Below, piece after piece: positions 1,595 to 9,702 of a DNA stretch of 9,825 nucleotides. Within the stretch, counting starts at the first letter, position 1, and each line of letters begins with the position of its first letter. The notes under the pieces are model-generated. The model was given only the letters and a program-made list of their open reading frames with translations, was not told where the DNA came from and made no database searches. Source of the stretch: a virus. Its lineage: Duplodnaviria; Heunggongvirae; Uroviricota; Caudoviricetes. Location of the stretch: the IMG/VR virus record IMGVR_UViG_2713896737_000030. The stretch is one strand, 5' to 3'. Made by a program: the position numbers and the translations under genes.

Positions 1595-1783
1595 GTGTTA
1601 AGCACTGATCGGTTTATACGTGAAAAAGAATGCGAAAAACTAACCGGCCTTAGCCGTACGTGTCGCTACCGCCTGGAAAAGGCCGGACAATTCCCATCAC
1701 GTCGTAAACTTGGCGGTCGTTCCGTTGGCTGGTCTTTATCCGAGGTTCTGGCCTGGAAGGATAGCTGCAAGGCAGTTCATTAA
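1595..1783 (+). CDS. alpA: AlpA-family phage transcriptional regulator (small HTH, excisionase-like), GTG start
   Basis: 62-aa ORF with an SD-like AGGGGG 6 nt upstream of GTG at 1595. Protein (FIREKECEKLTGLSRTCRYRLEKAGQFPSRRKLGGRSVGWSLSEVLAWK) matches the AlpA/Xis-like pattern. Lies directly downstream of int in the same orientation, as in Gram-negative PICIs and CP4-57-like islands. Confidence 0.85.
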   Translation: MLSTDRFIREKECEKLTGLSRTCRYRLEKAGQFPSRRKLGGRSVGWSLSEVLAWKDSCKAVH

Positions 1784-1929
1784 TCACGCTGGCGGCACAC
1801 AGCCGCCACACATCAATCATCTGAACACAGAGCTATAACCATGAAGATTGAATATACGCCAGAACGTGGGCGGGGATTCGTTCGCCCTGGTGAGACTGGA
1901 AAACCACAAAATTGGGGTTTTTCAGGCAT

Positions 1930-1958
1930 AAAAAAAGCGGCCCCGAAATGGAGCCGCC
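1930..1958 (-). terminator. Putative rho-independent terminator for the minus-strand two-gene module
   Basis: On the minus strand: 5-bp GC stem (GCGGC / GCCGC, + coordinates 1937-1941 / 1953-1957), 11-nt loop, then a 7-T tract (complement of the A-run at 1930-1936). About 95 nt downstream of the minus-strand ORF stop at 2053. Confidence 0.55.
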
Positions 1959-2052
1959 TTTCTGAACAGATAACCCGCTGCGCCTTATGTGTATATGATC
2001 CCAAACATAAGCACGGGGATGATAGCCGCTATCAGGCTGGTGGGCAATGCTA

Positions 2053-2226
2053 TCAGTCTGGTTCAGTTCGTTGCCATACCTGCAATGGGCGCGTTTCCCT
2101 GTACTCTTTAAGGAATTGCTCAAGGGCAAAAGCACATGGCGCGAATCTTTCTGATTCATGCTCTATCTTTCTGCGCCGTCTTTTCCGTGCCGGTGATAAT
2201 GTTTTGGTCAATTCTTTATCGGTCAT
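2053..2226 (-). CDS. Hypothetical small basic protein (57 aa from the second ATG; 62 aa if the ATG at 2241 is used)
   Basis: ORF-track entry 2053..2241 (-). The second ATG (2226) has an AGGA-type SD about 7 nt upstream, whereas the first ATG is preceded by a 7-bp hairpin (2248-2254 / 2268-2274). Contains a KRRRRK basic stretch. Rare codons (AGA, AGG, ATA) are consistent with horizontally acquired DNA. Function unknown. Confidence 0.4.
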   Translation of the reverse strand: MTDKELTKTLSPARKRRRRKIEHESERFAPCAFALEQFLKEYRETRPLQVWQRTEPD

Positions 2227-2283
2227 TGTGTTGTCCTGCATAGCAATGCGCCGTAATACCTCACACCACGGCGCTGATAGTTT

Positions 2284-2457
2284 TTATCCTTTGGGTTCTA
2301 TGCCGCGTTGCTGTAATTCTTTGCGGAGAACGCGTTTAATCCAAGTGGCTAAAGATGTGTCGCCATCGGCCTTAGCAGCTTCTTCTAGCTGCGCTCTGAA
2401 GTCTTCCGGTAATCGCATTTGGTATGGAGGCGAACGTTTTTCTAATGGTGTTGACAT
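2284..2457 (-). CDS. Arc/MetJ-type ribbon-helix-helix DNA-binding protein (57 aa); not in the ORF track because it is under 60 aa
   Basis: Manual translation of the minus strand gives MSTPLEKRSPPYQMRLPEDFRAQLEEAAKADGDTSLATWIKRVLRKELQQRGIEPKG. This has the RHH pattern (beta strand YQMRLPEDF, helix, G-x-S/T-L turn, second helix) comparable to P22 Arc and Mnt. SD-like AAGGG lies 8 nt upstream of the ATG. Confidence 0.65.
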   Translation of the reverse strand: MSTPLEKRSPPYQMRLPEDFRAQLEEAAKADGDTSLATWIKRVLRKELQQRGIEPKG

Positions 2458-2499
2458 GGTAATTACCCTTTATTGCTATACCTACATGGTAATTACCAT
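2451..2499. promoter_or_regulatory. Operator/promoter region: two copies of ACATGGTAATTACC (2454-2467, 2484-2497) spaced 30 bp, each containing the palindrome GGTAATTACC; TTGACA -35 hexamer at 2451-2456 and TGcTATACC extended -10-like at 2474-2482
   Basis: Read directly. The second copy is a perfect 14-bp palindrome, ATGGTAATTACCAT (2486-2499). The first copy overlaps the RHH start codon and SD region. Both flank a plausible + strand sigma70 promoter that faces the downstream + strand operon. Confidence 0.5.
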
Positions 2500-2587
2500 T
2501 GTACTTGCCATTACACAAAAATCAACGCCCCGCAGTGCTGGGAACACATACGGGGCGTCTAACCAACAACGTAAACTAGGAGCCGTT

Positions 2588-2785
2588 ATGGTTGCCGTAA
2601 ATCATATACCACACCTTGTACACACACAAACGGCCTTTGTGTGGCGTTTTCTGGCACTGAGTGCCGGAGAATCTCAAATCATCCACGTAACCGCCTGGAC
2701 GGAACGCGAAGCGCGTAACCGTTGCCCGTCCGGTTGTGTTGCTGTATTTGCCGCCCGTATTCGTCAGGAGGTGCGCCATGATTAA
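2588..2785 (+). CDS. Hypothetical small protein (65 aa)
   Basis: The 3' part of the long 1841..2785 ORF. ATG at 2588 has a good SD (AGGAG, 5 nt spacing). Stop overlaps the next start (ATGATTAA), suggesting translational coupling. Function unknown; small proteins at this position in such islands are often annotated Icd-like or Ash-like, but I cannot confirm that from sequence. Confidence 0.55.
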   Translation: MVAVNHIPHLVHTQTAFVWRFLALSAGESQIIHVTAWTEREARNRCPSGCVAVFAARIRQEVRHD

Positions 2786-2990
2786 TCTGTCACTTACTGA
2801 CCTTAACCGCATTCAGTTTCGTGAGAAATTCACAGGGCAGCTACTGGTCAATGTGGATAAAGGTCGCGTGGTGTGTAATTACCACTTACCAGATGAAGCA
2901 ATTGTCGCCACAAGGGAATCATTACAGGAAATCACAAAACGTGCCGGAATGATTAACACGAATATTCAGGGGATGCTTTATGCACAATAA
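2778..2990 (+). CDS. Hypothetical small protein (70 aa)
   Basis: ATG at 2778 preceded by AGGAGG (7 nt spacing). Overlaps the upstream and downstream genes in an operon-like arrangement. Confidence 0.55.
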   Translation: MINLSLTDLNRIQFREKFTGQLLVNVDKGRVVCNYHLPDEAIVATRESLQEITKRAGMINTNIQGMLYAQ

Positions 2991-3444
2991 AACCACACCG
3001 GACGCAGCCGCCGAAGCCATCAAAACGCTGATGCACGCGCTGATTGATATTTCTGTTATCGCGGACAGGGCACATAAGCACGCCACCAGCGAAACAGAAT
3101 ATGCCGGTGCTTTCGTTCCTCACTCACTGGCTGTCATGCAATTTAGTGCTGATACGGCGCTGAATGAGGCCAAAGCTATCCTGATTGCTGATTGTGAAAA
3201 TGGGGGGGTTATGCGTGATGATCGTTTTAATTCCCTGAAACAGGAATTTTCCGGCGTTCCTGATGATGCGGCTGATGCGCTTTCGTCAATGCCAGAACTT
3301 ATTAGAGCGGCTTTTTTCTTACTTTCCACGAGAGAATATAAATCAACGGGGCTTGATGTACTGAATATCGCCGCCGATTATGCGGAATATGTGGCAGAGG
3401 CGCGTTATAGAAGAAAATTTCCTGAGGATGTAAGCCATGCGTGA
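2980..3444 (+). CDS. Hypothetical protein (154 aa)
   Basis: ORF with an AGGGGA SD-like sequence. Overlaps the next gene start by 8 nt (ATG at 3437, TGA at 3442-3444). No recognisable motif. Confidence 0.7.
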   Translation: MHNKTTPDAAAEAIKTLMHALIDISVIADRAHKHATSETEYAGAFVPHSLAVMQFSADTALNEAKAILIADCENGGVMRDDRFNSLKQEFSGVPDDAADALSSMPELIRAAFFLLSTREYKSTGLDVLNIAADYAEYVAEARYRRKFPEDVSHA

Positions 3445-3670
3445 TATTTACCACCAAACAATAGACCGCGCATTTCTTGCACTTTCTCACAGTGAAAACA
3501 TGATGGAAATATTGCGCATATGGCTTGAAACACTTGGCGACAATGAACGCGACAAACAAAAATCAAGAATTGCCACGGCATTAATAACGCTTCTTGAGCC
3601 TGTAATAATGGAACTGCAAGAAATAGATCTATTGCACGACAGATATAAAGAACAGCACACCGGAGAATAA
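3437..3670 (+). CDS. Hypothetical protein (77 aa)
   Basis: Start overlaps the previous stop (translational coupling). No recognisable motif. Confidence 0.65.
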   Translation: MRDIYHQTIDRAFLALSHSENMMEILRIWLETLGDNERDKQKSRIATALITLLEPVIMELQEIDLLHDRYKEQHTGE

Positions 3671-3675
3671 AAATA

Positions 3676-3975
3676 ATGAAACTTAAATATTCTGGCTTAA
3701 CTGCCAGTGGCAACACTCACCCTAAATTTACGCGCGGTGATATTTACCGCGACCAGTACGGCGGCACGGTAATGATTAAGGGCGTGGAAGAACGGCGCGT
3801 AACCTACCGCCGTGAAGGTTACGAATATGATTGCGTGATGCCTGTTTATCAGTTCCGGCGTGATTTTTCTCTGGTACAGACCGCGCCGCATAACGTGCCC
3901 ACCAGCAACGCCAGGGCACGGGCAAACATCCAGAAGCTGAAAACCATGGTTAACGGATTCAGGGGCAAGAAATGA
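3676..3975 (+). CDS. Hypothetical protein (99 aa)
   Basis: GGAGAA SD upstream. Stop overlaps the ATG of the replication gene (ATGA at 3972-3975). Confidence 0.65.
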   Translation: MKLKYSGLTASGNTHPKFTRGDIYRDQYGGTVMIKGVEERRVTYRREGYEYDCVMPVYQFRRDFSLVQTAPHNVPTSNARARANIQKLKTMVNGFRGKK

Positions 3976-5372
3976 AAAGCGCACCGAACTTAAAAAAACA
4001 GCCTTACGACAAGATGACCGAAGTCATTATTTTTGCGGGTAGTGATGCCTGGGCACATGCGAAACAGTGGCAGGAACAGGACGGGCGACTGGCTGGCGAT
4101 AATGTGCCTCCCGTTGTGCTGGCTGATGATCAACTGGATGAACTGGCAGAACTGAGAATCATCGACGAGGGGCGCTATTGTGTCCGGCTGTACAAGGCAG
4201 GCCACATCAGGCCATCAAATATTAATGCCATTGCGCACAAGCTGGCGGCGGCGGGTGTAACTGATGCGAATTATTACCCCGAAGGGATGCACAGCCATAT
4301 GCGGGAGAACTGGCGCGAATACCTGGAACGGGTGCGCGGGAAAGAGCCGGCGGAAGAAAAAAACCACCAGCGAAAAACCACGCTACCGATGAGCGTTGGA
4401 TCTACCGGATACGACACGCAACTGGATTACGTGGTTAAGGGGATTATTCCGGCGGTATCGCTATGCAGCATATACGGGGCTAGCGGGTCCTATAAATCAT
4501 TCCTTGCCGGATCGTGGGCGTGCCATGTTGCCACTGGTCGCCAGTGGGGAGGCCGCAGGGTTGCACATGGTGCGGTTCTCTATGTGGTTGGTGAAGGCGG
4601 TATAGGTGTTCCGCGTCGTGTAAAAGCCTGGGAGGTTGTGCACGATGAGCAGGTGAAAAATCTGTATCTGGTAAACCGCCCCATCTTTCCGGCTGCCCCG
4701 CTTGATGTTGATGAAATGGTTATCGCTGCCCGTCAGGTGGAGCGGGAAACGGGTAAACCTGTACGCATGATTATTCTGGATACGCTGGCGCGTTGCTTTG
4801 GTGGGAATGATGAAAATGATTCCCGTGATATGGGGGCGTTTATCCGTGGTTGTGACGAACTGAAACGACGCACAGGGGCCACGGTGCTGGTGGTTCACCA
4901 TTCCGGCAAGGATGAGACGAAAGGCGCGCGCGGTTCCAGTGCATTTCGTGCTTCGCTGGATGCTGAATACCGGATACGCAGGGAGGACGCAGGAAGCGAA
5001 GCGCTGGTTATCTCATGCACCAAAATGAAGGACGCGGAGGAACTCAAAGAAGCCGCATATGACTTACGCGTGGTGGAGCTTTTTACCGACGCTGACGGTG
5101 AATTAATCACGTCGCTGGTGGTGGTGGATGATCCGCGCCCTCCTGTTGAACTGGAGCGCATCGAGGAGGCAGGGAACAAGACGGAAAACCATACCGCGCT
5201 ATGGGGGTGCATCCGTTCACGCACACAGAACGGCGACAAGTGCACGATCCCGCTGTTACGTGATGACATGAAAAAGCTGGGGTATGAAATGAAAAACTTC
5301 CGGCGCTGGCTGTACAAGCTGGAAAAAGATGGGGTTATTCGTATCGATGGGGATGATGTAGCGCCGCTATAA
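3972..5372 (+). CDS. Replication initiator ATPase/helicase, RepA-like RecA-fold (AAA_25-type) domain with N-terminal extension (466 aa); PICI pri/rep-like
   Basis: Walker A-like GASGSYKS, Walker B-like RMIILD, and downstream VVHHSGKD...RGSSA motifs typical of RepA/DnaB-like RecA-fold ATPases. Positioned after alpA and followed by an iteron array. Confidence 0.85.
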   Translation: MKSAPNLKKQPYDKMTEVIIFAGSDAWAHAKQWQEQDGRLAGDNVPPVVLADDQLDELAELRIIDEGRYCVRLYKAGHIRPSNINAIAHKLAAAGVTDANYYPEGMHSHMRENWREYLERVRGKEPAEEKNHQRKTTLPMSVGSTGYDTQLDYVVKGIIPAVSLCSIYGASGSYKSFLAGSWACHVATGRQWGGRRVAHGAVLYVVGEGGIGVPRRVKAWEVVHDEQVKNLYLVNRPIFPAAPLDVDEMVIAARQVERETGKPVRMIILDTLARCFGGNDENDSRDMGAFIRGCDELKRRTGATVLVVHHSGKDETKGARGSSAFRASLDAEYRIRREDAGSEALVISCTKMKDAEELKEAAYDLRVVELFTDADGELITSLVVVDDPRPPVELERIEEAGNKTENHTALWGCIRSRTQNGDKCTIPLLRDDMKKLGYEMKNFRRWLYKLEKDGVIRIDGDDVAPL

Positions 5373-5563
5373 AAGTGAGGAGCAAAAGCGAGGGGGATAG
5401 AAAGAGGGCCAAAATTAGCCCGCTCTCCCTCACTTTTCGACCTGTATACATCCTCAAAAGTGAGGGGTAAAAAAATACTTATGAAACACACACATAGAAA
5501 AACCGAAAATCCCAACTGCGACGAAGTGAGACGCTTGAAAAAGTGAGGCGAAAAAGTGAGAGG
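5372..5563. repeat. Iteron array (candidate replication origin): at least 6 copies of AAGTGAG, consensus (A)AAAGTGAGG, including one inverted copy
   Basis: Direct copies at 5373-5379, 5457-5463, 5524-5530, 5541-5547 and 5554-5560; inverted copy at 5428-5437 (CCTCACTTTT). Degenerate copies at 5385-5396 and 5401-5410. Lies immediately downstream of the rep gene. Confidence 0.65.
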
Positions 5564-5572
5564 TTGCGAGAA

Positions 5573-6241: not shown

Positions 6242-6514
6242 ATGGTACATGACCGCATAGCGGAGGAACTGGAGGCGAAAGGCTTTTACCGGAGGGCGGC
6301 GGCGCGATGGGGTGAAGTCATGCAGCTGGTGGAGACAGACAAGGAACGGCATCACATCACGATGCGACGGCTGGAATGTTCAAGGAAGGCACAGAGGGCA
6401 CCGGAGCCGCCGGATAATTTCGGAGACCTGAAAAAGGCAGTCGATCGCACTTATGCCGAAATGGGTATAGATGGTGCTGGTGATGAAATATGGCGCAATT
6501 ACCAGGACAGCTAA
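6242..6514 (+). CDS. PerC-family transcriptional regulator-like protein (90 aa)
   Basis: Start ATG 6242 with a GAGGGGG SD. N-terminus MVHDRIAEELEAKGFYRRAAARW matches the PerC/Pch signature (AExLExxGxWRRAAxRW). The longer track ORF from 6122 overlaps ssb and is rejected. Confidence 0.7.
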   Translation: MVHDRIAEELEAKGFYRRAAARWGEVMQLVETDKERHHITMRRLECSRKAQRAPEPPDNFGDLKKAVDRTYAEMGIDGAGDEIWRNYQDS

Positions 6515-7116: not shown

Positions 7117-7323
7117 ATGGCTGAAGAGAAAAAAAGCGGTGTTTCGGTGTACATAAGCCCCGAAATCGTGGAGGTGCTCAAGCAGCGCCACAAAAAAAAC
7201 TATGAAGCTGGCGTTGCGGCTGGACTGGATCCGCTGATGACGCCGGAGCCGTCGATAGGTTCACTTGTACGCTCTTATTTACTTGCGGCGCTTGGGATGC
7301 ATAAAAATTATGGGGGTGAATAA
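7117..7323 (+). CDS. Hypothetical small protein (68 aa; alternative start 7084), translationally coupled to the capsid gene
   Basis: AGAGGA about 10 nt upstream of ATG 7117. Stop TAA overlaps the capsid gene ATG (TAATG at 7321-7325). Confidence 0.5.
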   Translation: MAEEKKSGVSVYISPEIVEVLKQRHKKNYEAGVAAGLDPLMTPEPSIGSLVRSYLLAALGMHKNYGGE

Positions 7324-8378
7324 TGGCAGGCAAAGCAACGGCACTTAACACTAACCAGCTTTTCATGTACCTGAATCGCGGGGATATTGCGGATTTTAAA
7401 TTCAGCCCTCTGTTTACCACGCTGTTTTTCCCGAACGTGGCGACATTCAGCACGCAAAACATCATGCTGGATACCCTGGACATTGAAGAAGTCACCATGT
7501 CGGCGTTTTGTTCGCCTATGGTGGGTAGCCAGGTTCAGCGCGATAAAGGGTACGAAACCAGCACAATCAAACCTGGCTACATGAAGCCAAAGCACGAAAT
7601 CGATCCAACGAAAACCATCATGCGCATGGCTGGAGAAGATCCGGCACAGCTTAACGACCCTACCTATCGCCGTATGCGCCTGATTACTGGCAACATGCGC
7701 CGCCAGATAAACGCCATTAAGGCACGCGTGGAATGGCTGGCGGTGAATGCGGTAACGACCGGAAAAAACATCATTGAGGGCGAAGGCATAGAACGCTATG
7801 AAATCGACTGGAAAATACCGGAAAACTGCATCATAGAGCAGGCCAAGGGTAAAAAATGGTCCGAGCAGGATAAAGACATGCACGACCCAATCTATGACAT
7901 CGAGCTTTATGCTGATCAGGCTGGTTGCCCCGCAAACGTCATGATTATGGGCGCTGAGGTATGGCGCACATTACGCAGCTTTAAAAAATTCCGTGAGCTG
8001 TACGATCTTTCCCGTGGTTCAGAATCCGCCGCCGAACTGGCCTGTAAAAACCTGGGCGAAGTGGTGAGCTTTAAAGGCTATCTTGGTGATCTGGCCCTTA
8101 TCGTCTATTCCGGCAAATACACTGACAGCGATGGTACCGAAAAATATTTCCTTGAGCCTGATTTGCTGGTCCTAGGTAACACCAACAATAAAGGGCTGGT
8201 GGCCTATGGTGCGATAATGGATCAGGAAGCGGTAAGAACGGGCGCAACACAAAACATGTTTTACCCGAAAAACTGGATTGAGGACGGCGATCCGGCGATT
8301 GAGTACGTGCAGACACACAGTGCACCGCAGCCGGTACCGGCAGATATTCGCAAATTTGTTACCGTCAAAATTGGTTAA
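7323..8378 (+). CDS. Major capsid protein, phage lambda gpE-like family (351 aa)
   Basis: Several conserved blocks match lambda gpE as recalled: FKFSPLFTTLFF vs FKFDPLFLRLFF; PGYMKPKHEIDP vs PGYVKPKHEVNP; DPTYRRMRLI vs DPAYRRRRII; YPKNWIEDGDPAIEYVQTHSAP vs YPKNWVTTGDPAREFTMIQSAP. Length is similar (351 vs 341 aa). Strong SD (GGGGGTG). Confidence 0.85.
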   Translation: MAGKATALNTNQLFMYLNRGDIADFKFSPLFTTLFFPNVATFSTQNIMLDTLDIEEVTMSAFCSPMVGSQVQRDKGYETSTIKPGYMKPKHEIDPTKTIMRMAGEDPAQLNDPTYRRMRLITGNMRRQINAIKARVEWLAVNAVTTGKNIIEGEGIERYEIDWKIPENCIIEQAKGKKWSEQDKDMHDPIYDIELYADQAGCPANVMIMGAEVWRTLRSFKKFRELYDLSRGSESAAELACKNLGEVVSFKGYLGDLALIVYSGKYTDSDGTEKYFLEPDLLVLGNTNNKGLVAYGAIMDQEAVRTGATQNMFYPKNWIEDGDPAIEYVQTHSAPQPVPADIRKFVTVKIG

Positions 8379-8390
8379 CGGGGGGATTCT

Positions 8391-8726
8391 ATGGACACTC
8401 CATACATTGAGTTATTTGCAGGCAGTCAGCAGGTATCCACGACGTTGGTACATTTTGCCGCTGATGCTGGCGTTATTCAGGAATTTACCCCGCTGATGCT
8501 GGCAGACAATGGCGAGTTTAAGCCGTGGGATGGTCAGGAATCTGGCAAGGCTGTTTATCTGACCTCGTACCCTGTGGACACGTCAAAGCAGAAATCAGCA
8601 CAGTGTTACAAGACGGGGATATTCAATATTGCCGCCGTTAACTGGCCTGAGAGCGTCGACACCGATGCGAAAAAATGCGCCGCCTTTGCGGGTTCCGGCG
8701 TATCCGTTCAGCCGCTGGCCCGATAA
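8391..8726 (+). CDS. Head decoration protein, phage lambda gpD-like (111 aa)
   Basis: TPLMLADNGEFKPWDG vs lambda D TPLMLDTSSRKLVAWDG; CYKTGIFNIAAVNWPESVDTDAKKCAAFAGSGVSVQ vs [36 protein letters not shown]. Length 111 vs 110 aa. Confidence 0.8.
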   Translation: MDTPYIELFAGSQQVSTTLVHFAADAGVIQEFTPLMLADNGEFKPWDGQESGKAVYLTSYPVDTSKQKSAQCYKTGIFNIAAVNWPESVDTDAKKCAAFAGSGVSVQPLAR

Positions 8727-9357: not shown

Positions 9358-9702
9358 ATGAAATCTCATCTGATGAACAAAAAAAACATGGCGAAAAGCT
9401 GCCGTGTAAGTGCGACAGCGTTCGACAAGTGGGGAGTAACTCCCGTTGAGCGTAAAGGCCGTGAGGCGTTTTATGATGTTGCCAGCGTGATAGAAAATAG
9501 GGTTAACAATGCAATTAGCCAGCTTATAAACGACAAAGGCGAGATTGACGATGATGAACTTTTACGAGTCAGGATCAGATTACTGACAGCACAGGCAGAG
9601 GCGCAGGAACTTAAAAACGATCGCGGTGACGTGATTGATACTGAGTTTTGCCTGTACGCGCTTTCAAAGCTGGCGAGTCAGATTTCATCAATCATGGACT
9701 GA
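9358..9702 (+). CDS. Terminase small subunit, lambda Nu1-like (PICI Rpp-like); 114 aa, apparently truncated at the 3' end by an IS insertion
   Basis: LTAQAEAQELKNDRGDVIDTEFCLYALSKLASQISSIMD matches lambda Nu1 [42 protein letters not shown]. N-terminal region resembles the Nu1 winged-HTH region. Nu1 is 181 aa; here the reading frame ends with a TGA that is the first three bases of the IS (9700-9702). The exact start is uncertain (ATGs at 9358, 9373, 9388; none has a good SD). Confidence 0.75.
   Translation: MKSHLMNKKNMAKSCRVSATAFDKWGVTPVERKGREAFYDVASVIENRVNNAISQLINDKGEIDDDELLRVRIRLLTAQAEAQELKNDRGDVIDTEFCLYALSKLASQISSIMD

What the first reader, a model, noticed from the sequence alone, without database searches (positions are those of the whole stretch)
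2588..3975. Operon of five overlapping small unknown genes (65, 70, 154, 77 and 99 aa) feeding into the replication gene
Each gene overlaps or abuts the next (ATGATTAA, ATGCGTGA, ATGA junctions), indicating tight translational coupling and co-expression with rep under the operator-controlled promoter at about 2451-2482. None has a motif I can assign. In satellites this position commonly holds helper-interference, derepression or host-takeover functions, and small accessory or anti-phage proteins.
Basis: inference. Interest (0 to 1): 0.5.

Follow-up and report, generated by a model that had tools for sequence, protein, structure and literature searches.

The report
Early operon of an E. coli phage satellite
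The five small genes are real and form the early operon of a known kind of E. coli phage satellite (a PICI), but two of them are not unknown: the first belongs to the Icd/Kil cell-division-inhibitor family and the last is RgdR, a published regulator of E. coli O157 virulence genes.

Summary
Five co-directional ORFs (65, 70, 154, 77 and 99 aa) lie at 2588-3975, with 8-, 11-, 8- and 4-nt overlaps and one 5-nt gap. Each has a Shine-Dalgarno-like sequence. All are intact in related islands, with dN/dS 0.2-1.0.

The window is 100% identical to the roxA(ycfD)-phoQ island of E. coli O157:H7 EC4115 and TW14359. That island has the gene order of the model PICI EcCICFT073.

"No assignable motif" is wrong for two genes.
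- Gene 1 is an Icd/Kil-family protein (NF033153, 64.8 bits). It is 37% identical to the FtsZ-binding core of P1 Icd, and P4 Eta/Kil matches the same model.
- Gene 5 is RgdR (DUF4222, RGD at residues 20-22), a published activator of LEE1/type III secretion. The TW14359 allele was itself tested.

Genes 2-4 remain unknown. They are restricted to Escherichia satellites and recombine as cassettes; gene 3 fuses two modules that are separate genes elsewhere.

The layout mirrors the P4 left operon (vis-eta/kil-epsilon-orf151-cnr-alpha).

Outside the stated coordinates, two points stand out.
- Ribbon-helix-helix genes sit upstream on the minus strand, with allele-specific palindromes next to them.
- A 266-433-codon stop-free plus frame runs antisense through those genes, from alpA to the Icd-like gene.

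Verdict: an ordinary member of a known kind.

The parts
1595..1783 (+). alpA (AlpA/Vis-type excisionase-activator). It is context only: the gene that starts the plus-strand transcription unit in related PICIs.
   Evidence: Pfam Phage_AlpA E 5.4e-17. AlpA is the helper-induced activator in EcCICFT073 (PMC6092414).
1784..2587 (+). Long stop-free plus frame ('ORF3'/ORF-L; first ATG at 1841), in frame with O1, giving a 314-aa ORF 1841-2785. It runs antisense through the two minus-strand genes.
   Evidence: 0 stops in 268 codons against 9-22 in the other frames. P(0 stops) = 1.5e-4 in randomisations. The same holds in 11/11 related loci. No Pfam or PHROG domain. Composition is unlike a typical protein (12 Cys, pI 9.9).
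2053..2241 (-). 62-aa basic protein gene (R62), downstream of the RHH gene on the minus strand.
   Evidence: phrog_21027 E 3e-16. 64-97% identical ORFs in 8 of the 9 loci then in hand, the window's own copy included.
2284..2457 (-). 57-aa ribbon-helix-helix (Arc-like) protein gene (R57), a candidate repressor. PGAP does not annotate it in EC4115.
   Evidence: PHROG 228 'Arc-like repressor' E 1.5e-6. Pfam Arc E 0.038. NCBIfam YlcI_YnfO_N E 0.0014. Weak match to AmrZ. PGAP annotates YlcI/YnfO alleles at this position in other islands; their dN/dS is 0.08-0.26.
2454..2500 (.). Operator-like element: two copies of ACATGGTAATTACC (palindrome GGTAATTACC), 30 bp apart, between the RHH start codon and O1.
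   Evidence: the repeat finder. Other RHH alleles have different repeated palindromes at the same place: L004 GTGTTCAACAC x3, L002 AGGTGGTCACCT x2, L005 GGTATTCA palindromes.
2452..2480 (+). Candidate rightward promoter (TTGACA-17 nt-TGCTAT) overlapping operator 1. The -10 is weak.
   Evidence: Read from the sequence. The consensus scan did not call it. Inferred only.
2498..2525 (-). Candidate leftward promoter for the RHH gene (TTGATT-16 nt-TACAAT), abutting operator 2.
   Evidence: Promoter scan. It is a consensus match only.
2588..2785 (+). O1: Icd/Kil-family small protein (65 aa), a presumed FtsZ-directed division inhibitor.
   Evidence: NF033153 64.8 bits. 37% identity over 52 aa to P1 Icd, E 2e-7. 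P1 Icd and P4 Eta/Kil hit the same model. SD AGGAG.
2778..2990 (+). O2: 70-aa protein of unknown function; a cassette present in some related islands and absent from others.
   Evidence: phrog_340 E 1e-23. Only 21 clusters among 1.84 billion representatives. No hit in 50,697 phage records. Absent from the otherwise near-identical island L007.
2980..3444 (+). O3: 154-aa acidic, all-helical protein of unknown function. It is a fusion of two modules (about 1-76 and 78-154).
   Evidence: phrog_2512, plus phrog_5146 (N half) and phrog_24341 (C half). The halves are separate genes in L003-L006 and L008, and the L004 C-half is 100% identical. The AF2 model has pLDDT 60 and is two helical units. 495 clusters, all listed ones E. 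coli 'hypothetical'.
3437..3670 (+). O4: 77-aa acidic helical protein of unknown function, usually found just upstream of rgdR.
   Evidence: phrog_2196 E 1.2e-42. 73-97% identical 77-aa ORFs in 6 loci. 525 clusters, all listed ones E. coli. No phage hit.
3676..3975 (+). O5: rgdR (99 aa, DUF4222, RGD at residues 20-22, pI 10.2). Its stop overlaps the rep start.
   Evidence: PF13973 85.7 bits. 81% identical to the EDL933/Sakai RgdR. The window is identical to TW14359, whose allele was tested (PMC3378721). The AF2 model is a small beta-barrel plus a basic helix.
3972..5372 (+). rep: RepA-type helicase/initiator (466 aa).
   Evidence: AAA_25 E 2.4e-43. phrog_2850. PGAP calls it 'helicase RepA family protein'.
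5371..5564 (.). Replication-origin-like iterons (AAAAGTGAGG, five or more copies in both orientations) immediately 3' of rep.
   Evidence: the repeat finder. This matches the PICI origin position described in PMC6092414.

Best explanation
The block is the early operon of an EcCICFT073-family phage-inducible chromosomal island (PICI). It spans what the PICI literature calls the 'Bro' zone and the start of the 'Replication' zone. The island sits at the roxA(ycfD)-phoQ site (O-island 51 position) of lineage I/II-type E. coli O157:H7. It is the PICI counterpart of the phage P4 left operon, vis-eta/kil-epsilon-orf151-cnr-alpha.

Shown:
- Gene 1 is an Icd/Kil-family protein. Relatives in P1 bind FtsZ and block division.
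- Gene 5 is RgdR, a small basic protein that binds DNA non-specifically. It is known to raise LEE1/type III secretion and lower motility.
- Genes 2-4 are restricted to Escherichia satellites and recombine as cassettes. Their function is unknown.
- In every one of the 13 related islands examined, rgdR abuts or overlaps the start of a replication gene whose catalytic type varies.

Inferred:
- In the resting island, a divergently encoded ribbon-helix-helix protein occupies the two GGTAATTACC palindromes and keeps the rightward promoter shut.
- When a helper phage switches on alpA, plus-strand transcription from alpA runs through the long open frame, antisense to the repressor genes, and into icd-...-rgdR-rep.
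- Translation of that frame protects the transcript from termination, as P4 eta translation does.
- Overlapping stops and starts pass ribosomes from gene to gene. Division arrest, the accessory functions and replication then come on together.
For: Identity and context:
- 100% match to EC4115 and TW14359; annotated island.
- Same gene order as EcCICFT073 at the same chromosomal site.
- int, alpA and rep domains; iterons 3' of rep.

Gene 1:
- NF033153 64.8 bits.
- Aligns to P1 Icd residues 8-56. These include the FtsZ-binding core 12-51 (PMC11897509).
- P4 Eta/Kil scores 73.9 bits on the same model.
- In P1, icd likewise overlaps the next gene and is needed for its expression.

Gene 5:
- DUF4222; RGD at residues 20-22.
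- RgdR literature. 'Encoded by all analysed E. coli PICIs'.

Conserved architecture, Icd-like ... DUF4222-rep, with RepA, primase, DUF927 or DUF5906 replication genes, in 13 loci from E. coli, Shigella and E. albertii.

Purifying selection on all five genes.

Regulation:
- Allele-specific palindromes.
- RHH evidence.
- Alpa-dependent ORF3 reporter expression in EcCICFT073.
- P4 eta/kil logic.
- Stop-free frame from alpA to icd in 11/11 loci.
Against: - There are no expression data for this island. Operon status, translational coupling, repression by the RHH protein and read-through from alpA are all inferred.
- The rightward promoter has a poor -10, and the scan did not call it.
- The long frame has no convincing ribosome-binding site at its first ATG (1841), which lies 57 nt after the alpA stop. 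No protein domain was found in it.
- O2-O4 gave no functional lead by sequence, profile or structure.
- RgdR alleles do not co-vary with the replication-gene type: in L004, RgdR is 98% identical while the Rep N-terminus is 62% identical.
- P4 epsilon, orf151 and cnr share no detectable similarity with O2-O5. The P4 parallel is therefore homologous only for alpA/vis and Icd/Kil.
Confidence: 0.75

Rival explanations
1. The block (Icd-like gene, small genes and the replication gene) is an abortive-infection or superinfection-exclusion module. A protein of an invading phage triggers it, and the Icd-like protein then stops the cell.
For: Silas et al. [quoted passage not shown] The long ORF 1841-2785 here fits that description.
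Against: I could not compare sequences with the ECOR61 locus. No PADLOC model matches. The same genes are explained by the ordinary satellite life cycle. EcCIEDL933, which has the same module type, does not block its helper phages. The two readings are not mutually exclusive.
Confidence: 0.2
2. RgdR, and perhaps O4, is a replication accessory factor of the satellite. It would be the positional equivalent of P4 Cnr, which sits just upstream of alpha and modulates initiator binding. Its effect on LEE and motility would be a side effect of a basic DNA-binding protein.
For: rgdR abuts or overlaps the start of rep in 13/13 related loci, whatever the catalytic type of Rep. About 122 N-terminal residues of Rep are 59-67% identical across those types. 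RgdR has pI 10.2 and binds DNA non-specifically (PMC3378721). The model shows a small beta-barrel plus a basic helix.
Against: RgdR has no sequence similarity to Cnr (DUF5375). RgdR alleles recombine independently of Rep. The fold match is generic. I found no replication phenotype reported.
Confidence: 0.3
3. Gene 1 is not a free-standing 65-aa gene. It is only the C-terminal end of a 314-aa protein (1841-2785), as PGAP's 'Icd-like' pseudogene call upstream suggests.
For: The frame is open from the alpA stop to the O1 stop. It is fused in frame with Icd in 7 of 11 loci. P4 makes both Eta (long) and Kil (nested short) from one frame.
Against: O1 has its own strong SD (AGGAG) 5 nt before the ATG. 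The same N-terminus, MVAVNH..., starts the gene in the four loci where the upstream frame ends 9-26 nt before, or 12 nt after, the Icd ATG, or is out of frame with it. The upstream 249 residues have no domain and an odd composition. The most likely outcome is that both products exist.
Confidence: 0.15
4. Some of the five are chance ORFs and not genes.
For: They are short, and three have no characterised relatives.
Against: All are annotated by PGAP. All match multi-member PHROG families at E <= 1e-23. Within E. coli and Shigella all homologues examined are intact, with dN/dS below 1 in all informative comparisons; the E. albertii rgdR relative is a shorter ORF. The stop/start junctions are conserved in the related islands.
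Confidence: 0.02

Closest known systems
EcCICFT073, the model Gram-negative PICI of E. coli CFT073 (Fillol-Salom et al. 2018, PMC6092414)
   Same: Same chromosomal site (ycfD/roxA-phoQ). Same gene order: int, alpA, minus-strand small genes, Icd-like, small ORFs, a 77-aa ORF, DUF4222 (C1493 = RgdR orthologue, 93% identical to O5), replication gene, SSB, PerC, capsid and decoration homologues.
   Different: - The replication gene is primase-type there and RepA-helicase-type here.
- The Icd-like allele is only about 46% identical.
- The repressor allele differs (YlcI/YnfO 59 aa there, R57 here).
- The middle cassettes differ: three separate 73-76-aa genes there, O2 plus the fused O3 here.
O-island 51 / CP-933C = EcCIEDL933 of E. 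coli O157:H7 EDL933 and Sakai, which carries rgdR (ECs1581) (PMC3378721; 10.1101/2022.09.08.507074)
   Same: Same attachment site, near-identical int and alpA, the same Icd-like allele (95% identical), and RgdR immediately before the replication gene.
   Different: - EDL933 has 61-, 63- and 80-aa genes in place of O2-O4.
- Its replication gene is DUF927-type.
- Its RgdR allele is 81% identical.
- It carries a full capsid-forming packaging module (15.4 kb). The island here is about 10.4 kb, with capsid, decoration and terS genes only.
Left (early) operon of satellite phage P4: vis-eta/kil-epsilon-orf151-cnr-alpha
   Same: - An AlpA/Vis gene is followed by a long frame whose C-terminal part is an Icd-like (Kil) domain. 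P4 scores 73.9 bits on NF033153.
- Small genes joined by 8-nt overlaps follow, ending in the replication gene.
- Translation of the long frame is said to prevent termination (PMC10111431).
   Different: - P4 immunity is an RNA (CI) made from the same strand. Here no C4/CI-type RNA is detected (Rfam), and ribbon-helix-helix protein genes with palindromic operators lie on the opposite strand.
- P4 Eta carries a Phage_ASH domain; the frame here carries none.
- epsilon, orf151 and cnr are unrelated to O2-O5.
Phage P1 immI operon (c4-icd-ant1/2)
   Same: icd is the first, short ORF. Its stop overlaps the start of the next gene, and it is required for that gene's expression. O1 is 37% identical to Icd across its FtsZ-binding core.
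   Different: In P1 the downstream genes encode an antirepressor, not replication functions. Control in P1 is by the C4 antisense RNA and the C1 repressor.

Membership tests
Icd/Kil family (NCBIfam NF033153, 'host cell division inhibitor Icd-like') | Profile score above the curated cut-off | tested here: met
   O1 scores 64.8 bits against a cut-off of 25, E 5.2e-18. P1 Icd scores 52.6 bits and P4 Eta/Kil 73.9 bits on the same model.
Icd/Kil family (NCBIfam NF033153, 'host cell division inhibitor Icd-like') | Direct similarity to the experimentally defined active core of P1 Icd (residues 12-51) | tested here: met
   BLASTP aligns O1 13-64 to Icd 8-56: 37% identity, E 2e-7. The core is defined in PMC11897509.
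Icd/Kil family (NCBIfam NF033153, 'host cell division inhibitor Icd-like') | Binds FtsZ and blocks Z-ring formation (filamentation on expression) | not testable with these tools
   Needs expression and two-hybrid or microscopy. Known for P1 Icd only.
RgdR / DUF4222 (PF13973) | Pfam DUF4222 domain in a protein of about 99 aa | tested here: met
   85.7 bits against a cut-off of 27; residues 16-68 cover the whole 53-position model.
RgdR / DUF4222 (PF13973) | RGD tripeptide at residues 20-22, the residue-20 position shown to matter for activity | tested here: met
   O5 reads ...KFTRGDIY..., with R20-G21-D22. Across 33 relatives G21 and D22 are invariant and position 20 varies (R, N, H or P).
RgdR / DUF4222 (PF13973) | Encoded in the PICI at the ycfD-phoQ site, directly upstream of the replication gene | tested here: met
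   The window is 100% identical to TW14359, whose RgdR variant was cloned and found active (PMC3378721).
RgdR / DUF4222 (PF13973) | Activates LEE1/type III secretion and represses motility | not testable with these tools
   Taken from the literature for this allele class. Not re-tested here.
Gram-negative PICI, EcCICFT073 type | int, alpA and a pri/rep gene in that order, with origin iterons 3' of rep, in an island of about 10-15 kb | tested here: met
   Domains. The island spans about 10.4 kb between roxA and phoQ. Iterons. Colinear with EcCICFT073.
Gram-negative PICI, EcCICFT073 type | Induction, replication and packaging dependent on a helper phage | not testable with these tools
   Experimental property. 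Shown for EcCICFT073 and EcCIEDL933 only.
Capsid-forming PICI (cf-PICI) | Own portal, prohead protease, head-tail connectors and large terminase | tested here: not met
   The annotated island has only major capsid, decoration and small terminase genes downstream.
P4-like satellite | sid, delta and psu genes, an alpha-type primase-helicase, and CI RNA immunity | tested here: not met
   None of these is annotated in the island. No C4/CI-type RNA was found. rep is RepA/AAA_25 type. Only alpA/vis and Icd/Kil are shared.
Known anti-phage defence systems (PADLOC-DB) | Match of any of the genes to a defence-system protein model | tested here: not met
   No family at E <= 0.1 for O1-O5, rep, R57 or R62.

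The most novel reading that the evidence does not exclude
The E. coli PICIs do have a protein master repressor. It is a small ribbon-helix-helix protein (R57 or YlcI/YnfO type) with allele-specific palindromic operators just upstream of the Icd-like gene.

Its gene is embedded antisense inside a long plus-strand frame that is translated but has little or no protein function of its own. That frame would be the functional equivalent of P4 eta. AlpA-driven transcription and translation through the frame would both silence the repressor gene and carry RNA polymerase, protected from Rho, into icd-...-rgdR-rep.

The two strands share codon position 3 in every allele examined. That register lets both frames stay open.
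Probability: 0.3. Interest if true: 0.6.

Novelty: new member of a known kind. Interest (0 to 1): 0.3.

Why it matters
As stated, the finding is ordinary. It is the early operon of a well-studied family of E. coli phage satellites. Its two end genes are already named, and one of them was tested in exactly this allele. Filing it correctly avoids treating rgdR and an icd/kil homologue as unknowns.

Three points have some value beyond that.
- The three middle genes are Escherichia-satellite-exclusive cassettes that shuffle, fuse and split between islands. O157:H7 lineages differ at exactly this spot, next to a gene that modulates type III secretion.
- The PICI literature states that a global repressor in Gram-negative PICIs is 'unclear'. 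The divergent ribbon-helix-helix genes with allele-matched palindromes give a concrete, cheaply testable candidate.
- The stop-free frame antisense to those genes extends the P4 eta/kil read-through logic to PICIs. [quoted passage not shown]

Tried and rejected
- **Defence system:** no PADLOC match for any gene.
- **Solved structures by sequence:** nothing meaningful for O1, O3 or O5.
- **O3 structure:** the AlphaFold model reached only pLDDT 60. I did not run a fold search on it because the matches would be meaningless.
- **True phages:** no megablast match to 50,697 phage records. O2 and O4 have no tblastn hit, O1 has one, and O5 has 15 weak hits. The genes are therefore satellite genes, not phage genes.
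- **Wider taxonomic sampling of RgdR:** the scan of one genome per species found only Shigella flexneri and E. albertii.
- **P4/P1-type antisense RNA immunity:** no Rfam hit in the window.
- **Homology of O2-O5 to P4 epsilon, orf151 or cnr:** none.
- **PHROG label 'transcriptional repressor' for the Icd-like families:** rejected. P4's obsolete 'cI gene product' ORF matches the same PHROG (phrog_1743) and a sister family with the same label, which probably explains the label.
- **Specific RgdR-Rep pairing:** the alleles do not co-vary.
- **Terminator-like hairpin inside O1 (2623-2643):** it is identical in near-identical alleles and cannot be traced in divergent ones, so there is no covariation evidence.
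- **Which strand codes in 1841-2587:** codon-position substitution counts were uninformative because the two strands share third positions and the sequences are either too close or unalignable.
- **ECOR61 locus of Silas et al.:** I could not retrieve its sequence for comparison.
Full report
**1. What is in the sequence**

- O1 2588-2785 (65 aa)
- O2 2778-2990 (70 aa)
- O3 2980-3444 (154 aa)
- O4 3437-3670 (77 aa)
- O5 3676-3975 (99 aa)

They run into a 466-aa gene at 3972-5372 with an AAA_25/RepA-helicase domain (E 2.4e-43). The junctions are ATGATTAA, ATGCACAATAA, ATGCGTGA, a 5-nt gap, and ATGA. Every start is preceded by a purine-rich Shine-Dalgarno-like motif. The consensus scan finds no promoter-like or terminator-like site above the shuffle expectation. 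Inside the block it lists one weak promoter-like match (3581-3609) and one terminator-like hairpin inside O1.

**2. Where it comes from**

Bases 2400-4100 are 100% identical to many E. coli O157:H7 chromosomes, including EC4115 and TW14359. Part of the region matches 1,814 of 5,426 complete E. coli genomes. In EC4115 the window is an island of about 10.4 kb between roxA (ycfD) and phoQ. Its genes, in order, are: integrase, AlpA, the five small genes, RepA-type helicase, a small ORF, SSB, PerC-family regulator, small ORFs, major capsid protein, head decoration protein, small terminase.

This is the O-island 51 / CP-933C position (PMC3378721). The gene order is colinear with EcCICFT073, the model Gram-negative phage-inducible chromosomal island, which sits at the same site in strain CFT073 (PMC6092414). 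The island lacks portal, protease and large terminase genes. It is therefore not the 15.4-kb capsid-forming EcCIEDL933 found at this site in EDL933. No phage record matches the DNA.

**3. Are the five ORFs genes?**

Yes.
- PGAP annotates all five.
- All match PHROG families at E 1e-23 to 3e-92.
- In the 13 related islands I fetched (12 with the small-gene block annotated or scanned, from E. coli, Shigella and E. albertii), homologues within E. coli and Shigella are always intact. Pairwise dN/dS is O1 0.22-0.64, O2 0.45-0.52, O3 0.23, O4 0.36-0.97 and O5 0.19-0.39. For comparison, rep gives 0.11-0.36.
- The one exception is the E. albertii rgdR relative, which is a shorter ORF of 95 aa.

**4. 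Gene 1 is an Icd/Kil-family protein**

O1 scores 64.8 bits on NCBIfam NF033153 against a cut-off of 25. I fetched phage P1 icd. O1 aligns to it at 37% identity over 52 residues (E 2e-7). The alignment covers P1 residues 8-56, and residues 12-51 are the minimal part shown to bind FtsZ and block division (PMC11897509). P1 Icd hits the same model at 52.6 bits.

So does the P4 ORF formerly annotated as the 'cI gene product', at 73.9 bits over residues 85-132. That ORF is the eta/kil frame. It carries a Phage_ASH domain upstream of the Icd-like part. This probably explains why the PHROG families matching O1 are labelled 'transcriptional repressor': the label appears to be inherited from that obsolete P4 annotation. 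A recent survey notes an Icd-like protein in most P4-like, PICI and cf-PICI elements of Enterobacter.

**5. Gene 5 is RgdR**

O5 is a DUF4222 protein (85.7 bits) of 99 residues with RGD at positions 20-22. A search for DUF4222 in the literature led to RgdR (ECs1581). The published findings (PMC3378721) are:
- RgdR is a 99-aa protein of O-island 51 that restores type III secretion to an island deletion.
- It stimulates the LEE1 promoter and represses motility.
- It binds DNA without specificity.
- Residue 20 affects its activity.

Those authors distinguished two O157:H7 sequence types. They cloned the variant of TW14359 (lineage I/II; printed as TW14539 in the paper) and found it active. The window is identical to TW14359, so O5 is that tested allele. 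It is 81% identical to the EDL933/Sakai protein and 93% to CFT073 C1493. [quoted passage not shown]

**6. Genes 2-4 remain unknown**

No Pfam, NCBIfam, PADLOC or PDB-sequence match was found.
- **O2** belongs to a tiny family: 21 clusters among 1.84 billion representatives. It has no hit in 50,697 phage records. It is absent from an otherwise near-identical island (L007).
- **O3** is acidic (net charge -9) and predicted all-helical, but the model is poor (pLDDT 60). It is a fusion. Its N half (phrog_5146) and C half (phrog_24341) are separate genes in five other loci. In L004 the C half is 100% identical as a stand-alone 77-aa gene, and there an O2-like module is fused to an O3N-like module instead. 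The fused 154-aa form is itself common in E. coli.
- **O4** is acidic and helical, usually sits just upstream of rgdR, and occurs only in E. coli records.

Identities differ gene by gene between islands. For example, against L005 O4 is 73% identical and O5 98%; against L003 O4 is 92% and O5 80%. Each gene therefore behaves as a separate recombination unit.

**7. Conserved frame of the module**

All 13 related islands share this order: alpA; one or two small minus-strand genes; an Icd-like gene; two to six small ORFs; DUF4222; a replication gene. The replication gene may be of RepA-helicase, primase, DUF927 or DUF5906 type. The first ~122 residues of the replication protein stay 59-67% identical across these types. 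RgdR alleles do not co-vary with them. In L004, RgdR is 98% identical while the Rep N-terminus is 62% identical. This argues against a tightly co-evolving pair.

**8. Upstream control region**

On the minus strand lie R57 (2284-2457) and R62 (2053-2241). R57's sequence has the strand-helix-turn-helix pattern of a ribbon-helix-helix protein. It gets consistent but weak matches:
- PHROG 'Arc-like repressor' at 1.5e-6
- Pfam Arc at 0.038
- YlcI_YnfO_N at 0.0014
- AmrZ at 0.47

PGAP omits R57 in EC4115 but annotates YlcI/YnfO-family genes at the same position in other islands. The 101-aa alleles there have dN/dS 0.08-0.26.

Between the R57 start and O1 lie two copies of ACATGGTAATTACC, 30 bp apart. 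Islands with other repressor alleles have different repeated palindromes at the same place: GTGTTCAACAC x3, AGGTGGTCACCT x2, and GGTATTCA palindromes.

The rightward promoter itself (TTGACA-17 nt-TGCTAT) is weak. A leftward TTGATT-16 nt-TACAAT is also present. The PICI literature I could search says that a global repressor in Gram-negative PICIs is 'unclear', and I found no later report of one.

**9. An unexpected open frame**

The plus frame of O1 has no stop codon back to the alpA stop: 268 codons, against 9-22 stops in the other five frames. I resampled the minus-strand genes synonymously and shuffled the non-coding parts. Zero stops occurred in 1.5e-4 of trials.

In 11 of 11 islands the longest stop-free plus stretch (266-433 codons) runs from alpA to the Icd-like gene:
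- In 7 islands it is fused in frame with Icd.
- In the other 4 it ends between 26 nt before and 12 nt after the Icd ATG.

In all nine loci checked, codon position 3 of the minus-strand gene coincides with position 3 of this plus frame.

The translated sequence has no domain in this window and an odd composition: 12 Cys, 12% Ser, 2% Glu. Only one island (L006) has a Phage_ASH domain in it. PGAP's 'Icd-like pseudogene, missing C-terminus' at 1841-2434 is this frame. So is the 247-aa 'hypothetical protein' PGAP annotates at the same position in EDL933.

The frame is probably also what other authors have referred to. Fillol-Salom et al. made reporter fusions to an 'ORF3' downstream of alpA and found alpA-dependent expression. 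[quoted passage not shown] **10. How it most likely works**

The closest worked-out system is the P4 left operon: vis, then eta with kil nested in frame at its end, then epsilon, orf151, cnr and alpha, joined by 8-nt overlaps. As summarised in PMC10111431:
- Kil is a truncated form of Eta.
- Full-length Eta is translated only from the upstream late promoter.

By homology (AlpA/Vis, Icd/Kil) and by layout, I propose the same logic here. The difference is that a protein repressor encoded on the opposite strand replaces P4's CI RNA; Rfam finds no C4/CI-type RNA.

The family assignments, the architecture and the published RgdR and Icd phenotypes are shown. Co-transcription, ribosome hand-over at the overlaps, repression by R57, and the anti-termination role of the long frame are inferred.

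**11. Rivals**

- **Abortive infection.** A reading of the whole block as an abortive-infection module is suggested by the ECOR61 locus of Silas et al.. It cannot be excluded and may coexist with the life-cycle role. I could not obtain that sequence.
- **Cnr-like role for RgdR.** This fits its position, charge and DNA binding. It has no sequence support, and the alleles do not co-vary with Rep.
- **Chance ORFs.** Excluded by the comparative data.

**12. Verdict**

It is wrong that nothing can be assigned: two of the five genes belong to named families, and one has been tested experimentally in this very allele. As a finding, it is a new member of a known kind and of low to moderate interest. 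The more interesting material lies just upstream of the stated coordinates.

Noticed in passing
window 1784-2587 (+), continuing into O1 to 2785: A stop-free plus frame of 268 codons runs from the alpA stop to the O1 start, antisense through two minus-strand genes. The same holds in 11/11 related islands (266-433 codons). It is fused in frame with the Icd-like gene in 7 and ends within 26 nt of its ATG in 4. P(0 stops) is about 1.5e-4 in randomisations. Its translation has no domain and is Cys/Ser/Arg-rich.
   Followed up: partly
window 2284-2457 (-) and 2053-2241 (-): A 57-aa ribbon-helix-helix (Arc-like) gene and a 62-aa basic-protein gene lie on the minus strand. RefSeq does not annotate them for EC4115. 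YlcI/YnfO-family alleles are annotated at this position in other islands. In 9/9 loci their codon position 3 coincides with position 3 of the long plus frame.
   Followed up: partly
window 2454-2470 and 2484-2500; L004 3215-3268; L002 3670-3721; L005 2904-2960: Each repressor allele is accompanied by its own repeated palindrome between the repressor start and the Icd-like gene (GGTAATTACC x2 here). This is the pattern expected of cognate operators. The PICI literature calls a Gram-negative PICI repressor 'unclear'.
   Followed up: partly
window 2980-3444; L004 4184-4459, 4452-4817, 4810-5043: O3 is a fusion of two modules that are separate genes, sometimes non-adjacent, in other islands. In L004 and L008 an O2-like module is instead fused to an O3-N-like module. 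The small genes shuffle, split and fuse as cassettes.
   Followed up: partly
window 3972-4340 (Rep residues 1-122); L002, L003, L004, L009, L010, L011, L014: The first ~122 residues of the replication protein are 59-67% identical across proteins whose catalytic parts differ (RepA helicase, primase, DUF927, DUF5906). No Pfam domain covers this segment. The only match is to a PHROG 'DNA primase' family.
   Followed up: no
window 5371-5564: Five or more copies of AAAAGTGAGG, in both orientations, lie immediately after rep. This is the position and style of a PICI replication origin.
   Followed up: no
window 2623-2643 (+): A terminator-like hairpin (8-bp stem, then GCGTTTTCTG) lies inside the O1 coding sequence. 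It is identical in near-identical alleles and not traceable in divergent ones, so there is no covariation evidence for or against it.
   Followed up: partly
window 1841-2434 (+) = NC_011353.1 1537519-1538112: RefSeq annotates this stretch as a pseudogene, 'host cell division inhibitor Icd-like protein, missing C-terminus'. It has no Icd-like domain. The call seems to arise from database proteins that are long-frame/Icd fusions.
   Followed up: yes
PHROG families phrog_1743 and phrog_6196 (matches to window 2588-2785): Their label 'transcriptional repressor' probably descends from the obsolete 'cI gene product' protein annotation of P4 (X51522 8168-8584). That ORF is really the eta/kil frame with Ash and Icd-like domains, and P4 CI is an RNA. 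The P4 ORF matched phrog_1743 directly; the link to phrog_6196 is inferred from the shared label.
   Followed up: yes
window 6242-6514 (+), 7323-8726 (+), 9358-9702 (+): The island also carries a PerC-family regulator gene (the literature links pchE to OI-51). It has lambda-type major capsid and decoration genes plus a small terminase, but no portal, protease or large terminase. This matches EcCICFT073, where deleting the capsid and decoration homologues gave no phenotype.
   Followed up: no
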